Shown here in pieces: positions 983-62,780 of a stretch of 64,000 bases of DNA. The position numbers were made by a program, and so were the translations under genes. A model generated the notes under the pieces. That model was not told the DNA's origin and ran no database searches. It saw only the letters and a program-made list of their open reading frames with translations. This stretch comes from Octopus sinensis (lineage: Eukaryota). Each line of letters begins with the position of its first letter. The stretch's first letter is position 1. The stretch covers positions 63,736,001 through 63,800,000 of the forward strand of contig NC_042997.1 in the NCBI RefSeq assembly GCF_006345805.1. Direction: 5' to 3'.

Positions 983-2029
983 ATGGTAGAAAAGAATAGA
1001 AAGTCTTTCGTACACTATCACATATTGGAAAAATGCATAGAAATGGCTTTTCTGATAATTTTTCCCTTTTAATAATTAATAATTTAAATGCACATCAGAC
1101 TCGAATTCGGTTTTAGGAAATATACTTAACTAGAGATAACAGAGCCCATGAAAAAGTGCAAAAGATTGCTTGGGGAATCTTCAGACGTCAAATTGTATTT
1201 TGAATTAATTTGTTACTAATGTCACAGTGATGACTAGGATACGACCAGTCATGTGCTTTGGGATGGTAATGGCGAAAACCTAGGATAACTTGACCAAAGT
1301 GATTGCGTTCATATAAAAAAAGGAGTAATCGTTTAATGTGTTGATATGTGGAATAGTAATATGAAATAGGTGGAATGCCGTAGTTTGGTGCGTAAGAATG
1401 CCAATATAGTTGAGTGGTACCCGGGGAGAAAGGAAATGAATGTTTGTGCATATGAAAATTGAATACCAAGTGAATTCGAAACTAAGGGTGTCGCAACTGG
1501 TGACATGAATTACTGGATTGGATAGACACTTTCTGTGAATTGTTGGAGCATTTGATGCATTCGGGAATTAAAACCGGTCTCATTGCTACCGAGGTGGCGA
1601 ATTATGATATAATTGTAGATGAAATGAGCTATGCGTGGGTCTTATTTTGCACATACATAGCTAGAGCAGTATGTTGATTATTTCAAAAGGTATCGGAAAA
1701 TTAGCAAGAGTGATAGAAAAAGGTAAATTTAAAATCCATAGCAGGGTGGAAATACAGATATAATCACATCAACTGACACATAATCCTTCCAGACTGGAAA
1801 AAAAGCTTCGGTTTTAAAGCAATCTAGTTTTGTACGCCTTTTTATTCATCTAACACGTAGTTTTCACAGTAAACGTGACTACACGAGAAATTTCGATTCT
1901 CTTCAAATTTTCTTTATTTTATTTTTCTTAGTGGAGATTCACGATTTGAAATGTTGAATTCTTCTCACATTTTTCATCACACCATAAAATTAATTACTGT
2001 GCATTCCTGCTTTGTTGTCTGATGAAACA

Positions 2030-2720
2030 ATTTGGATAGTATTTTTCTTATTTTCTTATTTTCTGTTACGTCTTGGTCGTTCACTTAGTGTTAGATTGAG
2101 AATATTTTATCTCATTAGTAGAACAGGTGAAATATTGAGAAATATTACATTAATTTTGCATTTAACTTTGTTTGAACATTACCTAAGTCGTGTATAACTT
2201 CCTAAACTTTACTTTCATTTGTGTAAATTGTGCTCTGTCAAATTCTTCTCTCTAGCATTTGTATCGGGTGCCATTCTCTCGTCCTAGCATGATATTAGAT
2301 TTCTTAATTTTCCTTTACGGGGAATTGACTTGGTACATTATTCTAAACCAGATTTCCAAAATATTCCTTTGATATATCCTTATACAGACTACGGTTGTAT
2401 TTCTAGTTTATCACTTGCAATATACAAATTTAGGACATACATATAACTTAGTAGCTTATTTGAATCATATTTGATTTGATATATTAATTCAGACACTTAA
2501 TGGATAGGGGAGAACGAGTCCTCTCAGAATATATTTTTTCTAATGGGAAGATGGTTACACTTCATTTCATTTCTCCTGCAGGTTGTTTTTCTGGGGTTTT
2601 ATTTCTATTCTGTGATACCATTGCAGTTAGGGCTCTGTAGTTTGTAGGGTTCGCTATTTCCTTTGTCTTTAGGATAACGTGTTGTTTTTTTTTTTGTCCT
2701 TTTTGCCGTTTCCTGTTCTG
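2030..2720 (-). pseudogene. Heavily decayed Dong/R4-type non-LTR retrotransposon RT relic
   Basis: Manual minus-strand translation gives ordered motif remnants: KTKEIANPTNYRAL (NYRPI), PEKQ..CRRN (PEEQKGCRR), IF*EDSFSPI (IFQGDSLSPL), LLSYMYVLNLY (LLYMDDLKLY), GLE*CTK..RKGK (FGLEKCAK..GK), QMKVK. Many stops and frameshifts; may extend to ~3400. Confidence 0.6.
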
Positions 2721-4499
2721 GTAGTGTTTTAGTAATCATCTTTATCAGCACCTTGTTTCCTTGTTAAATATTTTAAACTATAGTTTGGAATTGAGGCATT
2801 CAATTGTTTGTTCTCCGTAGTGCCTATTTCAATTTTTGTTTTATTGTACCCTTGCCATAACTGTAGTTTCCTTTTGAACAATTTTGTCGATGCACAATCC
2901 CAGATACATTTGCATCTATTGCTATTGGAGCTACATTGATTTGTATTTCATTTTATCTATTTTTTGATAAATTCTTTTTTGTGTTGGGCCAAACATCTGC
3001 GATCTGGCCCTAGCGAAACATTTATGGTTTAATATGAATCCCTTGATTCAGACATTTTTACTTTTAATATACGTCTTTGTTTACTGTATATTTTCGTAAC
3101 ATTTGCCCCTTTGTCACTCTTATGCAGTTTGTTATTGATACTTTTAAGAATTAATCTACTGCTTTATTATTACCTAGATTAATTTTGTGTTTTGTCTTCC
3201 ATATTGTTCACCCATACATATGGAGGACTATTTTCTTATGTTTGCACTTTCTATTATTCTCGATGTTATTATACAGCTAGAGTTTATTTTTTGTTAATAC
3301 TTCCGTTCTTTCATTGGAAGTTGCATTATGAATAATTATTTCCCTATTTCTGTACTTCGATTGCCATGTTCATGTTTTCCTACACTACAACTTTCTATTC
3401 TGAAATATACCTCATATAGTCAATTCTTCATATTTTTGTGACTTAGCGATATGTAGGCTTTCTACCGTTTGTTCTGCTTTAATTCAGTTTCTTCATTACT
3501 TTGTTGGATTGCGCCGAGTAGGTCAATGTCTTCGGCCGGATATAGAATTGGAGTTCATCGTATCGCTTCAGTTTTATTGTAGATTAGATTCCGAAACCTG
3601 CAATAGAATGAACGAACTGGCTCGAAGTATTCAGTTCACTCTGCTCAGGTGGAGTTATTTTACTAGTCTTGGGGCTGATAAATTAAGTACTATATATCAC
3701 GCTAATATGCTGCATTCGGCCATTGAAATCATGCGTTGCCTTATATCTATGAGATCTATATATGATCCTAGCTCAAAACTTCCTTGGATAACTTTGCATT
3801 TCAACTTTCTATATCGATAAAATAACTACCCAAAATCAACTTGGGGTCACATCGGCGTCAAATAATCGTTCAGCCCTACGCACGCAAGCACAGACACATA
3901 TGCAGATATCCGTACGCCCTTGCATGTGCGAGTGTGTGCGCGCGCGAGCGTTGATGTACTGAATATGCGATAAATTACCATCGAAAAATCAGTTCGAATT
4001 TCTTCTAGATTAATTTCCCATTATGTGTGCTGCCAACGGGGCAGAAAAAATAGTTGATATTGCAGATCATTCATTACAAACATTTCAAATGACCATAATT
4101 AATAATAAAACTGACTACCATCAGCATCATCAGATTGCAGAGTGAAATAACTTTCTTCAATATTTTCCACTTCATATACGTCGCACCTCAGCCTATAACA
4201 GAAAACAAAAAAGAGAAAATAAAAATAAAAATAAAAACTCAATTAAAACTAGATAATACATCAAATAAAATATAACAATGTTGACTGATGCGAAATCAAG
4301 GCGTCGCACATAAGCGCAGACTATTGGAAAAATTTGAATTGAGATGAAACACCAGACAATAAAAAATAGATAATACGTGTTTTAATGGATAAAAATGAAG
4401 TAAAAGCACCTGCAAGTAAAATATACATGGAATATAATACGGTAAATCTATTTAGATATTGTATAAAAATATATTCGATTCAAATTTTTGCACTAAACC

Positions 4500-35514: not shown

Positions 35515-35578
<64 letters not shown>

Positions 35579-35659
35579 GGTCCCGGGTTGATTCGGGGTT
35601 AACCACAGTAAATAAGGTACTCAATAAATAGCAGAGTAAAATTTATTTATTATATAGAA

Positions 35660-35713
35660 GGAGCTTCTACAGGACTAGAACTGTTTCATTCAAGAGAAAT
35701 CATCAGGAGCTTC
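35660..35713 (-). ncRNA. Type I hammerhead ribozyme, family A (minus arm of the palindrome)
   Basis: Minus strand: gaagctc CTGATGA tttc tctt gaat GAAA CAG ttctagtc CTG TA gaagctcc. Stem III intact; stem I has a 1-nt bulge. Confidence 0.7.
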
Positions 35714-35760
35714 CTGATGATTTCTCTTGAATGAAACAGTTCTAGTCCCGTAGAAGCTCC
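35706..35760 (+). ncRNA. Type I hammerhead ribozyme, family A (plus arm)
   Basis: Stem I GGAGCTTC/GAAGCTCC, core CTGATGA 35714-35720, stem II TTC/GAA with U.U closing, GAAA 35733-35736, stem III ACAG/CCGT (one mismatch), GUA site with cleavage predicted after 35752. Confidence 0.72.
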
Positions 35761-35772
35761 TTCTATATAATA

Positions 35773-35812
<40 letters not shown>

Positions 35813-35917
35813 TATATATATGTATATATGTATAAGGGTGGAAAGGAACACACGAGTTGATATATATGAAAAAACAAGTCAAAAATAGAAAATGCTAAGA
35901 TAATTTTATAGTGAATC

Positions 35918-35961
35918 TTTCAGTACCGGTTTCGGTCATTTTGAGACCTTTTCAACTGTAA
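35918..35961 (-). ncRNA. Minimal type I hammerhead ribozyme in the PLE pseudo-LTR, U3-A8 core variant (family B)
   Basis: Minus strand: tacag TTGAAAA GGTC tcaaaat GACC GAAA CCGG TA ctgaa. Stem II 4 bp, palindromic stem III ACCGGT, GUA site, stem I CAG/CTG; same sense as the ORF. Confidence 0.8.
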
Positions 35962-36295
35962 CGATTAAATAATTAAATTTAGAAACATTAGAAAAAAAGT
36001 TTTTTTAAAAGAATATTTCTATAGTAGTGTTCAGATATAAGTAGCATTCTGCCTTTCTCTGACTCCCTTGTTTGCACTTGTGTGTTCGAGGTCGTTGTGA
36101 GTTCTTGGTAGGGTAGGTGAAGAATAAGGAGGCTGATGTGGAGAGGGGGTGGGGAAATCTGGGAATGCCTTGATGGTCGTATTTTGAATGGTCAGTGGCT
36201 GACAGCAGTCGCAGTTCAATTCAGGAATTGTATATGGAATTTGCGTAGGCGTTATATTGAAAGACATTAGTGACAAGGTTAAGGGGTGGAAGGTG

Positions 36296-36480
36296 GAGAA
36301 GTAGAAGAAGAAGAAGAAGATGACGATGTTGATGATGATGATGATGAAGAAGAAGAAGAAGAAGAAGAAGAAGAAGGAGGAGAAGGAGAAGATGATGGTG
36401 ATGATGGTGGTGATGATGATGACGACGATGATGATGATAATGATGATGATGAAGAAGAAGAGGAAGAAGAAGAAGAAAAA
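36296..36480. repeat. Compound (GAA)/(GAT)/(GAC) microsatellite inside the PLE 3' region (mirrored at ~38640-38812)
   Basis: Directly visible in both inverted arms, with slightly different unit counts. Confidence 0.95.
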
Positions 36481-36605
36481 AACAGAGAAGGGAGAATATG
36501 AATGGGTGAAAGTATAGCTGTGATGGGGCTGATTAGTAATGGATTCTATGGAGTGTAATATTTGTGTGTGTATATATATTTCTTTTATTCTAAAGTTGAG
36601 GTATA

Positions 36606-38279
36606 TTAATTGTTTGTCGTAGACCCGTTAAGAAGTGGCTTGTATTTTGTAATAAAGAGATTTTCTTTACTTATTCGTTGTCTCGAGGTTGTATCGTCCC
36701 TAAATTGGTAGAGGGGGAAAATCCTGAAGTTTGGTGTTTTTGTGTTGGCGCAAGTATCTATGTGTTGGCTAAAAGCTATTTTTCTGTTTTGGGGAATTTT
36801 TATCTGGGATCTGTGCAGGGCCATTCGTTTACGCAAACCATTTTTTGTTTGGCCTATGTACTGCTCTTGACACCCGGAGCAGGTTAGTGAGTATATTAGG
36901 TTCTCCGAAGCACATGTGAAGTTGCTTTTCACTGTAAACCGTTGTCCCTGTTTGAAGGAGAACTCTGATCCCTCAATTAGATAGTCGCATATCCCGCAAT
37001 TGGGTCTTCCACATTTTTTTACTGTCGGCTTCTGTGTTGAAGAGTGAATTCGGGCTTGTGTTAGGAGACTTTTCATGGATCTAAGCTGTCTTTTGCTTTT
37101 TATGATCTCGTGTGTTTGGAGGATTGTGTTCATTCTGTGGTCTTTTTTTAGGAGGGGTATGTTGCGGAGGATGGTGCCGAAGGCTTCGTTATTGAGAGGG
37201 TTGTGTGTGGAGATGTATGGTAAGGCTTTTGGTTGTAAGTTTTTCTTTGATTTGGGATGTCTCAGTTCCTTGATGTTAAGTTGAAGGGCACGTTGAATGC
37301 ACTTGTCAATAAGTGAAGGTGGATAGTTCCTGGTGATAAGGGTATCTTTTAGTTCTTGTAGTCGTGTGTCTCTGGTGTTTGCGTTAGAGACTATAGTGCA
37401 TATCCTTTTTGCTAGATTGAAGGGGATATTCATCCTGGTGTGTCTGGGGTGGCATGAATTGAATGGAAGATATTGCTTAGAGTCTGTAGGCTTATAGTAT
37501 ATGTCTATTTCTATTATATTATTAGCTTTCTTAATGAGGATATCGAGGAAGGGGAGTTGTTGCTGGCTATATTCCATCGTGAATTTGATGTTTACGTCCA
37601 GTCCGTTTAAAATTTCCTGGAATTCTATGAGTTTTTCTATATTTTTATGCCAAAGGATGAAACAGTCATCTAGATATCTCTTCCAGTTGTTTTCTATGTA
37701 GATGGAGAAAAGGCTGCCATATCTTTCTAGAACCTTACGATACAGACTGATCTCTAGGTATCCTATGACTAGGTTGGCAAAGGAGGGGGCCATTCCTGTA
37801 CCCATCGCAGTCCCCGATTTTTGTCTGTAGAAGTTGTCATTGAAGGCGAAGAAGTTATTTTCCAGGATGAATTTAACCCCTTCTATCACAAATTCTTTTT
37901 TGATGCGGTGTGGTAGTTCGTTGGCGTGATTCTCTAGCCAGAATTGGATTGCCTCTAGTCCTAGGTTGTGGGGGATATTGGAGTAGAGGTTGACTACATC
38001 GAAGGATACAAGTATGGTGTTTTTGTTTATAGTATTCGGTAGGTGATTGAGCATATCTAAGTCGTCCCTTATATAGCTTTTGACATGTTTGAGGAGTGGT
38101 TTTAACAGGGTGTCTAAAAAGTTACTGAGGCGGTGGGTTTCGCATGCGGGACCTGCTATTATGGGTCTCAATTTGAGGTCATTAGGATTAGGGACTTTAA
38201 TTATTTTGTCTGTAGCTATCTTGCATGCGTTGCTTATTTTTTCACTTTTGTGGATCTTAGGTATACCGTAGAATTGGCT
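36606..38279 (-). CDS. PLE polyprotein, 5'-truncated: reverse transcriptase + Cys-rich linker + GIY-YIG endonuclease
   Basis: The frame is open 36 codons upstream of the track's TTG start and includes FYGIPKIHK. RT motifs LRPII, SFDVVNLYSNIP, GTAMGT, RYLDD, LPFLDI, YYKPT; linker CGRPNCGIC; endonuclease LIYSLTCSGCQEQYIGQT..RMALH..H..E..LN. No internal stops over 557 codons. Confidence 0.95.
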   Translation of the reverse strand, partial: SQFYGIPKIHKSEKISNACKIATDKIIKVPNPNDLKLRPIIAGPACETHRLSNFLDTLLKPLLKHVKSYIRDDLDMLNHLPNTINKNTILVSFDVVNLYSNIPHNLGLEAIQFWLENHANELPHRIKKEFVIEGVKFILENNFFAFNDNFYRQKSGTAMGTGMAPSFANLVIGYLEISLYRKVLERYGSLFSIYIENNWKRYLDDCFILWHKNIEKLIEFQEILNGLDVNIKFTMEYSQQQLPFLDILIKKANNIIEIDIYYKPTDSKQYLPFNSCHPRHTRMNIPFNLAKRICTIVSNANTRDTRLQELKDTLITRNYPPSLIDKCIQRALQLNIKELRHPKSKKNLQPKALPYISTHNPLNNEAFGTILRNIPLLKKDHRMNTILQTHEIIKSKRQLRSMKSLLTQARIHSSTQKPTVKKCGRPNCGICDYLIEGSEFSFKQGQRFTVKSNFTCASENLIYSLTCSGCQEQYIGQTKNGLRKRMALHRSQIKIPQNRKIAFSQHIDTCANTKTPNFRIFPLYQFRDDTTSRQRISKENLFITKYKPLLNGSTTNN

Positions 38280-39147
38280 AGATTCCAGATAAAAATTGGC
38301 ACAGATCCCAGATAAAAATTCCCCAAAACAGAAAAATAGCTTTTAGCCAACACATAGATACTTGCGCCAACAAAAAAAACACCAAACTTCAGGATTTTCC
38401 CCCTCTACCAATTTAGGGACGATACAACCTCGAGACAACGAATAAGTAAAGAAAATCTCTTTATTACAAAATACAAGCCACTTCTTAACGGGTCTACGAC
38501 AAACAATTAATATACCTCAACTTTAGAATAAAAGAAATATATACACACACAAATATTACACTCCATAGAATCCATTACTAATCAGCCCCATCACAGCTAT
38601 ACTTTCACCCATTCATATTCTCCCTTCTCTGTTTTTATCTTCTTCTTCTTCCTCTTCTTCTTCATCATCATCATTATCATCATCATCGTCGTCATCATCA
38701 TCACCACCATCATCACCATCATCTTCTCCTTCTCCTCCTTCTTCTTCTTCTTCTTCTTCTTCTTCATCATCATCATCATCAACATCGTCATCTTCTTCTT
38801 CTTCTACTTCTCCACCTTCCACCCCTTAACCTTGTCACTAATGTCTTTTAGTATAACGCCTACGCAAATTCCATAAACAATTCCTGAATTGAACTGCGAC
38901 TGCTGTCAGCCACTGACCATTCAAAATACGACCATCAAGGCATTCCCAGATTTCCCCACCCCCTCTCCACATCAGCCTCCTTATTCTTCACCTACCCTAC
39001 CAAGAACTCACAACGACCTCGAACACACAAGTGCAAACAAGGGAGTCAGAGAAAGGCAGAATGCTACTTATGTCTGAACACTACTATAGAAATATTCTTT
39101 TAAAAAAACTTTTCTTATAAATTTTCTAAATTTAATTATTTAATCGT

Positions 39148-39190
39148 TACAGTTGAAAAAGTCTCAAAATGACCGAAACCGGTACTGAAA
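39148..39190 (+). ncRNA. Second copy of the family B hammerhead, in the inverted arm
   Basis: tacag TTGAAAA AGTC tcaaaat GACC GAAA CCGG TA ctgaaa; G10.1 to A breaks the first stem II pair. Confidence 0.65.
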
Positions 39191-39261
39191 GATTCACTAT
39201 AAAATTATCTTAGCATTTTCTATTTTTGACTTGTTTTTTCATATATATATATATATATATA

Positions 39262-61620: not shown

Positions 61621-62780
61621 ATGTAGGTCCCGGGTTGATTCGGGGTAACCACAGTAAATAAGGTACTCATACATAGCAGAGTAAAATTAATTTATTATAT
61701 AGAAGGAGCTTCTACAGGACTAGAACTGTTTCATTCAAGAGAAATCTTCAGGAAGCTAGTTAACAAGAATTGTATTGGCATTTATACATTTAGGCAGGTT
61801 TAACGGGGTGTTGGTGGGGGACTTTTTTGGGGGTAGGCATAGCGCAAAATATCATACTTGGGGGAGTGGTCAAGGAGTCAGTGTTAAATTAGATAGAAGA
61901 ATAAATAAAAAATAAAAAAATAAAAAAATAAGAAAATAAAATAAAAAAATAAAAAAAATTAAAAAAACCCATATATAAAAAAAAAACAAAAAAACCTGTA
62001 TATAAAAAAGGGGGGAATAGAGTTTTAGGTAAATAAGGAGATTCTCACTTATACCTATGCACAGTGTATAACATACACTAACACCCATACAAACATATAT
62101 ACATATACATACACACATACATACACACACATATATATACATATATATACACTTACACATACACATACATATACATATCACAGATACACATATATGTATA
62201 CATACACACACTCACATGCATACATGTATACACACATGTATATATACACACACGACCTCACATCATACGCACAGAAAAATATATATACACATACACACAC
62301 ACTACTCACATACACGCATACACACACATATCCACACACAAACATGCACACACAGCACACTAGTCCTATATACACATATATACACATACACAACCTATAC
62401 ACACATACATACATATACATACATGTATACATATACATATGTGTACCTATGCAAACCTACACATACACACATATATATACACATACAAATACAGACCCAT
62501 TCCCTAATTTTAATTTTATTATCTTCGTTTATTACTTTTGTTATCTTTGGCCGCTTGGTCACAAACATCTTGGCTATTACAGCCAGTCCATTTATCTGTC
62601 TACTGGAAAACAAGCACTCATTCACTCACGCACACTCTTTAGCACGTACTCTCACTCATTCGTACACTCATACACATACACGCACGCACGCGTTATATTC
62701 ATACATACATCCATCTACATACATTCACGTATATACACATACGTACGCGTACCTACAGATTTATGTCTACACTCTTAGAA
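61621..62780 (-). mobile_element. Longer copy of the family A PLE-like terminal region
   Basis: 61621-61753 matches 35575-35708, then continues through G-rich, A-rich and (CA/TA) tracts to a (TA)n boundary; the right limit is uncertain. Confidence 0.6.
61707..61757 (-). ncRNA. Type I hammerhead ribozyme, family A (best-preserved copy)
   Basis: Minus strand: AGCTTC CTGAAGA tttc tctt gaat GAAA CAG ttctagtc CTG TA GAAGCT. 6-bp stem I, 4-bp stem III, GUA site. It differs from the 35.7-kb minus-strand copy at the free N7 position. Confidence 0.8.

What the first reader, a model, noticed from the sequence alone, without database searches (positions are those of the whole stretch)
35918..35961. PLE pseudo-LTR hammerhead with a compensatory U3-A8 core (UUGAAAA) and palindromic stem III
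Seen: the core reads TTGAAAA instead of CTGANGA in both arms, so C3 to U and G8 to A change together, while stem II (GGTC/GACC), GAAA, ACCGGT and the GUA site are intact. Known: positions 3 and 8 form a tertiary Watson-Crick pair, U3-A8 is an uncommon natural variant, and self-complementary stem III sequences allow cleavage as dimers in tandem transcripts. Inference: a functional ribozyme that standard CUGANGA searches would miss, possibly active only in tandem pseudo-LTR transcripts.
Basis: partly seen in the sequence, partly recalled or inferred. Interest (0 to 1): 0.75.

Follow-up and report, generated by a model that had tools for sequence, protein, structure and literature searches.

The report
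Variant hammerhead leaves genomic cutting scars
This is an already described variant of a small self-cutting RNA, carried by about 2,000 copies of a Penelope-type jumping gene; stray copies start exactly at its predicted cut, some fused to U6 RNA or to halves of other such ribozymes, which suggests it likely does cut inside cells.

Summary
The motif is real: a type I hammerhead with a U3-A8 core in the pseudo-LTR of a 5'-truncated Penelope-like element (RT plus GIY-YIG). UUGAAAA is the family norm: 99 of 100 listed of 1,768 copies, and no C3-G8 copy was found. The variant is not new; U3-A8 hammerheads in Penelope elements were published in 2014. Two corrections: stem II is broken in the right arm, and the arms are inverted, so this locus cannot form a cis dimer. 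The added result is a DNA record of cutting. Junctions peak at the predicted scissile bond: 29-31 of 43 matches (25 loci), against 6-14 at neighbouring bases and 0-6 farther off. One copy is fused to the 3' end of U6, and five loci to 5' halves of other hammerheads ending at their own cut. This fits RNA ligation of cyclic-phosphate to 5'-OH ends; template jumping is not excluded. Most copies read through the site, and U3-G8 and C3-A8 families exist in the genome, so 3-8 pairing is not strict. The scan had already noted variant cores in this genome and U6-at-cut chimeras in other genomes. Cleavage and dimer dependence remain untested.

The parts
35908..35968 (-). Type I hammerhead motif, left arm (intact): bulged stem I, core UUGAAAA, 4-bp stem II with 7-nt loop, GAAA, palindromic helix III
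   Evidence: sequence, fold and numbering, weak Rfam HH9 hit
35949..35955 (-). Core U3-U4-G5-A6-A7-A8-A9 (U3=35955, A8=35950)
   Evidence: family norm
35925..35930 (-). Palindrome ACCGGU: at most a 1-2 bp helix III alone, a predicted 6-bp helix between two copies (-8.3 kcal/mol)
35923..35924 (-). Predicted scissile bond GUA|C; genome-wide junction peak lies at the equivalent base
39140..39200 (+). Hammerhead motif, right arm; same core but G10.1 changed to A (39160), probably inactive
35860..36816 (-). Left arm: 3' end of the element (end of endonuclease region, 3' UTR, pseudo-LTR)
38299..39248 (+). Right arm: inverted, shorter 5'-truncated copy of the same 3' end
36606..38300 (-). 5'-truncated ORF: reverse transcriptase, CX4CX2C linker, GIY-YIG endonuclease; the window copy covers about positions 1971-4325 plus 1-98 of the 4,325-nt unit
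35826..35859 (-). About 30-nt 'tail' present on one arm only; continues into the element's own 5' region
35780..35825 (.). (TA)n flank, left
39241..39261 (.). (TA)n flank, right

Best explanation
This is the U3-A8 hammerhead motif in the pseudo-LTR of a Penelope-like retrotransposon family with about 2,000 copies, and it likely cuts a minority of the element's transcripts in cells at GUA|C. Shown: the motif, its fixation in the family, full tandem units of 4.3-4.4 kb with two same-strand hammerheads elsewhere in the genome, a single-base peak of genomic junctions at the predicted cut, and chimeras with U6 and with other hammerheads' 5' halves. Inferred: U3 pairs with A8 in place of C3-G8; the short helix III is completed by pairing of two ACCGGU palindromes (same or different molecules) and/or by the element's protein; cutting leaves a 2',3'-cyclic phosphate and a 5'-OH; the 5'-OH end is usually rejoined or never formed, but sometimes an RtcB-type ligase joins it to another cyclic-phosphate end, and the element's reverse transcriptase copies the product into (TA)n DNA. 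The window copy itself is a truncated, inverted insertion whose read-through RNA would fold into a 950-bp hairpin, so it is probably not an active source.
For: Core fixed: 99 of 100 listed of 1,768; 7 matches lack U3, all keep A8; 3 family copies have G8, all keep U3. Full unit 4,325 nt with direct pseudo-LTRs (L036); three more same-strand pairs 4.4 kb apart. Non-collinear junctions by offset from the cut: -7: 2 of 6; -5: 0 of 30 examined (39 matches); -2: 6 of 26; -1: 14 of 40; 0: 31 of 43 by script, 30 by eye (25 loci); +1: 11 of 27; +2: 8 of 30 examined (32 matches); +6: 6 of 16; +11: 2 of 7. Rough Poisson P 5e-7 against the near mean. L093: U6 3' end with five T abuts C1.1 (Rfam E 7e-12). 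Five loci carry a foreign hammerhead 5' half ending GUC at the cut; three donor families verified, whose native copies continue differently (11 of 12, 12 of 12, 12 of 12 loci); one donor gives zero microhomology. None of the 49 non-collinear matches at other offsets shows such a half (read by eye). U3-A8 is reported active in vitro (PMC3088659, passage). RtcB joins U6 cyclic phosphate to 5'-OH RNA (PMC6789731) and circularises retrozyme RNA (PMC7229834).
Against: No cleavage assay and no RNA-end data. 2,034 matches keep GTA|CTG intact, and 0 of 30 copies with the ORF start begin at the cut (29 start upstream, 1 downstream), so most templates were uncut or rejoined. The peak has shoulders at -1 and +1. 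Matches are not independent (five both-arm pairs) and the control anchors differ somewhat. Two of the three verified donors allow 1 base of microhomology. Families with U3-G8 (about 70 of 100 listed of 355 matches) and C3-A8 (about 15 of 100 listed of 151) amplified in the same genome, so amplification does not need a Watson-Crick 3-8 pair. In the anole Poseidon element hammerhead mutants inserted normally in vitro and no RNA-seq reads ended at the cut (PMC11167929). Metazoan minimal hammerheads cut poorly in vitro even as dimers (PMC4209133).
Confidence: 0.78

Rival explanations
1. The ribozyme cuts, but the chimeras arise when the reverse transcriptase runs off the cut 5' end and jumps onto the free 3' end of another RNA (template jumping), with no RNA ligase.
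For: Many junctions at the cut join the element's own inverted arm (6 loci), its own upstream parts (8 loci) or (TA)n DNA (2 loci), as expected from polymerase switching. PMC6789731 leaves template switching open for some snRNA chimeras.
Against: All identified foreign partners (U6, hammerhead 5' halves) are RNAs expected to end in a cyclic phosphate, the RtcB substrate. Several junctions are shared by both inverted arms, which fits their presence in the template (L089/090, L099/100, L208, L217).
Confidence: 0.3
2. C1.1 is a transcription start or nuclease-sensitive site; the hammerhead is a non-cutting relic or a structural element copied along with a successful transposon.
For: Most copies read through the site; mismatched cores amplify in other families; hammerhead-less Naiads thrive (PMC8557442); fixation in a young family reflects the master copy, not selection.
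Against: A start site would have to fall on the scissile base by chance; donor hammerheads also stop at their own scissile base; capped ends are not RtcB substrates (general knowledge).
Confidence: 0.13
3. The chimeras are DNA-level or cDNA recombinants between similar hammerhead motifs and say nothing about cutting.
For: Donor and acceptor share GAAAC and GT next to the junction; short-repeat deletions do occur nearby (six matches at offset -1).
Against: A crossover in the shared GT would keep the acceptor's A17, but the chimeras keep the donor's C17 and switch at once to the acceptor's first base; donor 1 has no shared base there. U6 shares no such homology.
Confidence: 0.07

Closest known systems
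Metazoan PLE hammerheads incl. the U3-A8 variant of S. mansoni Cercyon elements (Cervera and de la Pena 2014, PMC4209133; parts 1-2 of 4 read, supplements not seen)
   Same: Type I motif in the pseudo-LTR, U3-A8 core, G10.1-C11.1, palindromic positions 15.2-16.2 and loop 3, dimer model, copies in opposite orientation close together.
   Different: Here stem II is 4 bp with no extra base at its 5' side and helix III has a 2-nt insert, closer to their canonical or Drosophila/shrimp type; the carrier has the CX2-5CxxC linker. No genomic junction evidence was given in the parts read.
U3-A8 natural hammerheads (Perreault et al. 2011, PMC3088659; passages)
   Same: Covariation C3-G8 to U3-A8 in nature; stated to be active in vitro.
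   Different: Scattered examples; here fixed in several families of hundreds to thousands of copies in one genome.
Neptune/Nematis-type EN+ PLEs (Craig et al. 2021, PMC8557442; passages)
   Same: RT then linker Zn-finger then GIY-YIG, 5' truncation, inverted arm, one-sided 30-40 bp tail, (TA)n targets.
   Different: Clade not placed on a tree here; Neptune versus Nematis undecided.
PAc Poseidon hammerhead of the green anole (PMC11167929; passages and second half of main section)
   Same: Pseudo-LTR hammerhead, insertions ending downstream of the cut, tail between two end points.
   Different: PAc has C3-G8 and overlaps the start codon; here the cut lies 123 nt upstream of the first ATG seen in L036. 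That paper found no RNA ends at the cut; here DNA junctions mark it.
U6/LINE-1 chimeric pseudogenes made by RtcB (Moldovan et al. 2019, PMC6789731; abstract, introduction start, section 18)
   Same: U6 3' end with five U joined to retroelement RNA and then copied into DNA.
   Different: There the 5'-OH comes from an unknown nuclease at variable sites; here it sits at a ribozyme cut, and other ribozymes' 5' products also serve as partners.
Metazoan non-LTR retrozymes (PMC7229834, passages; bioRxiv 10.64898/2026.07.22.740005, part 1 of 5)
   Same: Type I hammerheads with palindromic helix III; RtcB circularises the cut RNA in vitro; link to PLEs.
   Different: Retrozymes are 170-400 nt and non-coding; this unit is 4.3 kb and coding.

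Membership tests
Type I hammerhead ribozyme | Core C3UGANG8A...GAAA...UH, or covarying 3-8 pair | tested here: met
   U3UGAAA8A, GAAA, GUA; U3-A8 is a published covariant
Type I hammerhead ribozyme | Helices I and II, open end in helix I, G10.1-C11.1 | tested here: met
   left arm and family; right arm fails G10.1-C11.1
Type I hammerhead ribozyme | Stable helix III | tested here: inconclusive
   hammerhead fold as monomer -1.5 against -9.3 kcal/mol for the best fold; palindrome duplex -8.3
Type I hammerhead ribozyme | Loop 1-loop 2 tertiary contact | not testable with these tools
   bulged stem I and A-rich loop 2 are present; contact not modelled
Type I hammerhead ribozyme | Self-cleavage after N17 | not testable with these tools
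   indirect only: junction peak and chimeras
Rfam Hammerhead_HH9 (RF02275) | Gathering score 52 bits | tested here: not met
   22.9 and 16.4 bits
EN+ Penelope-like element | Single ORF, RT then C-terminal GIY-YIG | tested here: met
   Pfam RVT_1 E 5e-8 above cut-off; GIY-YIG E 4e-4 just under cut-off; 478 homologues
EN+ Penelope-like element | Pseudo-LTRs from partial tandems, inverted arms, one-sided tail | tested here: met
Neptune/Nematis clades | CX2-5CxxC linker before GIY-YIG | tested here: met
   CGRPNCGIC; definition from PMC8557442
Neptune/Nematis clades | Placement on an RT tree with named references | not tested
   no named reference sequences came from the searches
Naiad/Chlamys | N-terminal endonuclease | tested here: not met
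   endonuclease is C-terminal
RtcB-made RNA chimeras | Cyclic-phosphate donor joined to 5'-OH acceptor before reverse transcription | tested here: inconclusive
   junction geometry fits; enzyme and order of events not testable

The most novel reading that the evidence does not exclude
Hammerheads of unrelated Penelope and retrozyme families cut in germ-line cells, and their products are cross-ligated at the exact scissile bonds (donor N17 to acceptor N1.1), giving a ribozyme-plus-ligase route of RNA recombination that swaps ribozyme halves between retroelement families and is fixed in the genome by retrotransposition; U3-A8 cores take part both as acceptor and as donor.
Probability: 0.5. Interest if true: 0.75.

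Novelty: new member of a known kind. Interest (0 to 1): 0.55.

Why it matters
The core variant itself is known. What matters is the indirect in vivo evidence. Whether the weak hammerheads of endonuclease-bearing Penelope elements cut in cells is described as unclear (PMC8557442), and one study found no RNA ends at the cut (PMC11167929). Junction mapping in genomic copies gives a bench-free read-out at single-base resolution, shows a U3-A8 core likely works, and names exact chimeric junctions that can be sought in RNA. It also shows that CUGANGA-only searches miss at least 3,600 motif copies in this genome (1,768 plus 1,913).

Tried and rejected
Rfam at gathering level does not detect these hammerheads. 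Single-strand folding gave no signal. RNA: no RNA holder on record was listed; only assembled contigs could be laid, which cannot show ends, so nothing is drawn about start sites or expression level. Contigs of four runs under four organism labels showed no listed change at U3 or A8, but 49 rows were not shown. No C3-G8 sister of this family was found (the 118 canonical cores of the same geometry belong to other families by their stem sequences), so the order of the two changes is unknown. The 360-bp U3-A8 tandem family shows no real similarity to this element's unit. The expectation that full-length copies start at the cut failed (0 of 30). A second possible U6 junction (L218) rests on 11 bases and also matches the element itself; not counted. 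The donor of L234 was not verified as a family. Lunse et al. 2016 on PLE hammerhead variants that cleave as dimers is not held; only its title was seen, and it may already cover such cores. The in vitro study of 3-8 exchanges was not read; it is known here only through PMC3088659. Searches for printed reports of U6 or hammerhead chimeras at PLE cuts and of these motifs in octopus gave nothing relevant; subscription papers and supplements were not covered.

Full report
Observation. On the minus strand the window reads stem I, UUGAAAA (35955-35949), GGUC-UCAAAAU-GACC, GAAA, C-CG-GU, A17 at 35924 and C1.1 at 35923. The copy in the other arm has the same core but AGUC in place of GGUC, which breaks the G10.1-C11.1 pair. 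The arms are inverted repeats of about 950 bp around a 5'-truncated frame with RT, a CX4CX2C linker and a GIY-YIG domain, set in (TA)n, with a 30-nt tail on one side. This is the standard layout of a Penelope-like insertion (PMC8557442, passages). Rfam gives only a sub-threshold hammerhead hit.

The family. With the seven core bases left free, 1,768 genome sites match against 0 for the control; 99 of the 100 listed read TTGAAAA. Seven matches lack U3 and all keep A8; three family copies have G8 and keep U3. A complete unit with two same-strand hammerheads 4,325 nt apart exists at L036, and three more same-strand pairs about 4.4 kb apart appear. By my count of the 100 sites listed, 21 of 23 multi-copy clusters include an inverted pair and 4 a same-strand pair. 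The window locus is of the inverted kind: one transcript would carry one sense hammerhead inside a long hairpin.

How unusual is the core. U3-A8 was reported in Penelope hammerheads of Schistosoma mansoni, about 1,300 hits, together with palindromic helix III and the dimer model (PMC4209133, parts 1-2 of 4), and earlier as a natural covariant that is active in vitro (PMC3088659, passages). In this genome a pattern for U3-A8 cores with other palindromes gives 1,913 matches against 12 control, mostly a family in 360-bp tandem arrays, plus a third family; a fourth appears. Against strict compensation: a U3-G8 family makes up about 70 of the 100 listed of 355 matches and a C3-A8 family about 15 of the 100 listed of 151.

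Energetics. The hammerhead fold of the monomer scores -1.5 kcal/mol against -9.3 for the best fold, while two ACCGGU strands pair at -8.3. This fits completion of helix III by a second copy, in the same or another molecule, but does not prove it. The anole Poseidon hammerhead needed the element's protein in vitro (PMC11167929).

A DNA record of the cut. I searched for copies whose match to the family stops at a given base and classed the upstream flank as collinear or not. Non-collinear matches by offset from the predicted cut: -7, 2 of 6; -5, 0 of 30 examined of 39; -2, 6 of 26; -1, 14 of 40; 0, 31 of 43; +1, 11 of 27; +2, 8 of 30 examined of 32; +6, 6 of 16; +11, 2 of 7 (searches; classing 66, 71). 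By eye the count at 0 is 30 matches at 25 loci; script and eye differ on three matches. Six of the matches at -1 are one recurrent short-repeat deletion, and several at -1 and -2 could be junctions at 0 shifted by a shared A or TA. A rough Poisson test gives P 5e-7 against the mean of the four nearest offsets; matches are not fully independent and anchors differ a little. The 25 loci split into 8 jumps from the element's own upstream parts, 6 fold-backs into its inverted arm, 2 direct (TA)n flanks, 4 other unrelated flanks, 1 U6 and 4 foreign hammerhead halves.

The chimeras. At L093 the 3' half of U6, ending in five T, abuts C1.1 (Rfam U6, E 7e-12). A targeted search gave 11 matches: 6 matches at 5 loci are foreign hammerhead 5' halves ending GUC joined to this family's C1.1, and 5 are small insertions in the family's own motif. 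Three donor families were found intact in the genome (13, 149 and 23 matches); their native copies continue with their own stem I strand in 11 of 12, 12 of 12 and 12 of 12 loci examined, the one exception being the chimera itself. For donor 1 (two loci, possibly one event that spread) there is no shared base at the junction; for donors 2 and 3 one base is shared. Donor 3 is itself a U3-A8 hammerhead. In the loci held, 432 of 2.5 million positions are preceded by such a half, against 4 of the 25 loci at the cut. U6 ends in five U with a cyclic phosphate and RtcB joins it to 5'-OH RNA before retrotransposition (PMC6789731); hammerhead cutting yields the same two end types (PMC8782182, abstract in search listing), and RtcB circularises retrozyme RNA in vitro (PMC7229834).

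Limits. 2,034 matches keep the site intact, and none of 30 copies that hold the ORF start begins at the cut. Cutting is therefore partial or undone by rejoining, and may not be needed for insertion, as found in vitro for the anole element. Template jumping from the cut 5' end explains the same junctions without a ligase; both readings need an RNA 5' end at C1.1. No RNA-end data could be had.

Known and new. The motif is a new member of a known kind. Four literature searches found no printed report of U6 or hammerhead-half chimeras at Penelope cuts, but a key paper (Lunse et al. 2016) and supplements were not available. This scan's own unchecked notes already record variant cores in this genome (e1-9915596) and U6-at-cut chimeras in other genomes; I reached the junction result before reading them. 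Cross-family hammerhead chimeras are not mentioned in the lines shown. One note calls the genome an octopus; I did not check this.

Verdict. Observation partly confirmed; interpretation partly supported. Likely functional U3-A8 hammerhead (0.78); novelty low for the motif, moderate for the genomic cleavage record. Interest 0.55.

Noticed in passing
window 35578-35779: A short palindromic insertion of another family directly beside the element, with two inverted hammerhead-like motifs with canonical CUGAUGA core (starts 35714 + and 35706 -); a related motif starts at 61751 (-).
   Followed up: partly
L178-L207 (e.g. G000:C1:28192960-28195156): A U3-A8 hammerhead family in 360-bp tandem arrays, stem II GGGG/CCCC, palindrome ACGCGU, 6-bp stem I: retrozyme-like, most of 1,913 matches.
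   Followed up: partly
G000, e.g. C1:15699326 and C2:17171725: Families with a U3-G8 wobble core (palindrome ACUAGU) and with a C3-A8 mismatch core (some in 360-bp pairs): possible intermediates or catalytically dead passengers.
   Followed up: no
L036:5380-5700, runs X2, X3, X16: Clustered A-to-G changes on both strands in contigs of runs guessed to be RNA, including loose ends that turn the A-rich core into a G run: looks like hyper-editing of inverted-arm hairpins, which would destroy the core; no matched DNA run.
   Followed up: partly
L036, L038-L041: Subfamilies differ just 3' of the cut (GATTCAC, TGTTCAC, TGTTCTT); by eye both main forms can pair with the 5' strand of stem I, in different registers.
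   Followed up: no
G000:C1:44606299, 127590107 and L104: A few copies of this family or older subfamilies carry C3 with A8; an older relative might hold the ancestral core.
   Followed up: no
L411-L446: One donor family often reads CCGAAGA at the core (U4 to C) in about 60 of 100 listed matches.
   Followed up: no
window 36260-36490 and 38620-38830: Long triplet repeats (GAA/GAT) inside the element's 3' UTR, in both arms.
   Followed up: no
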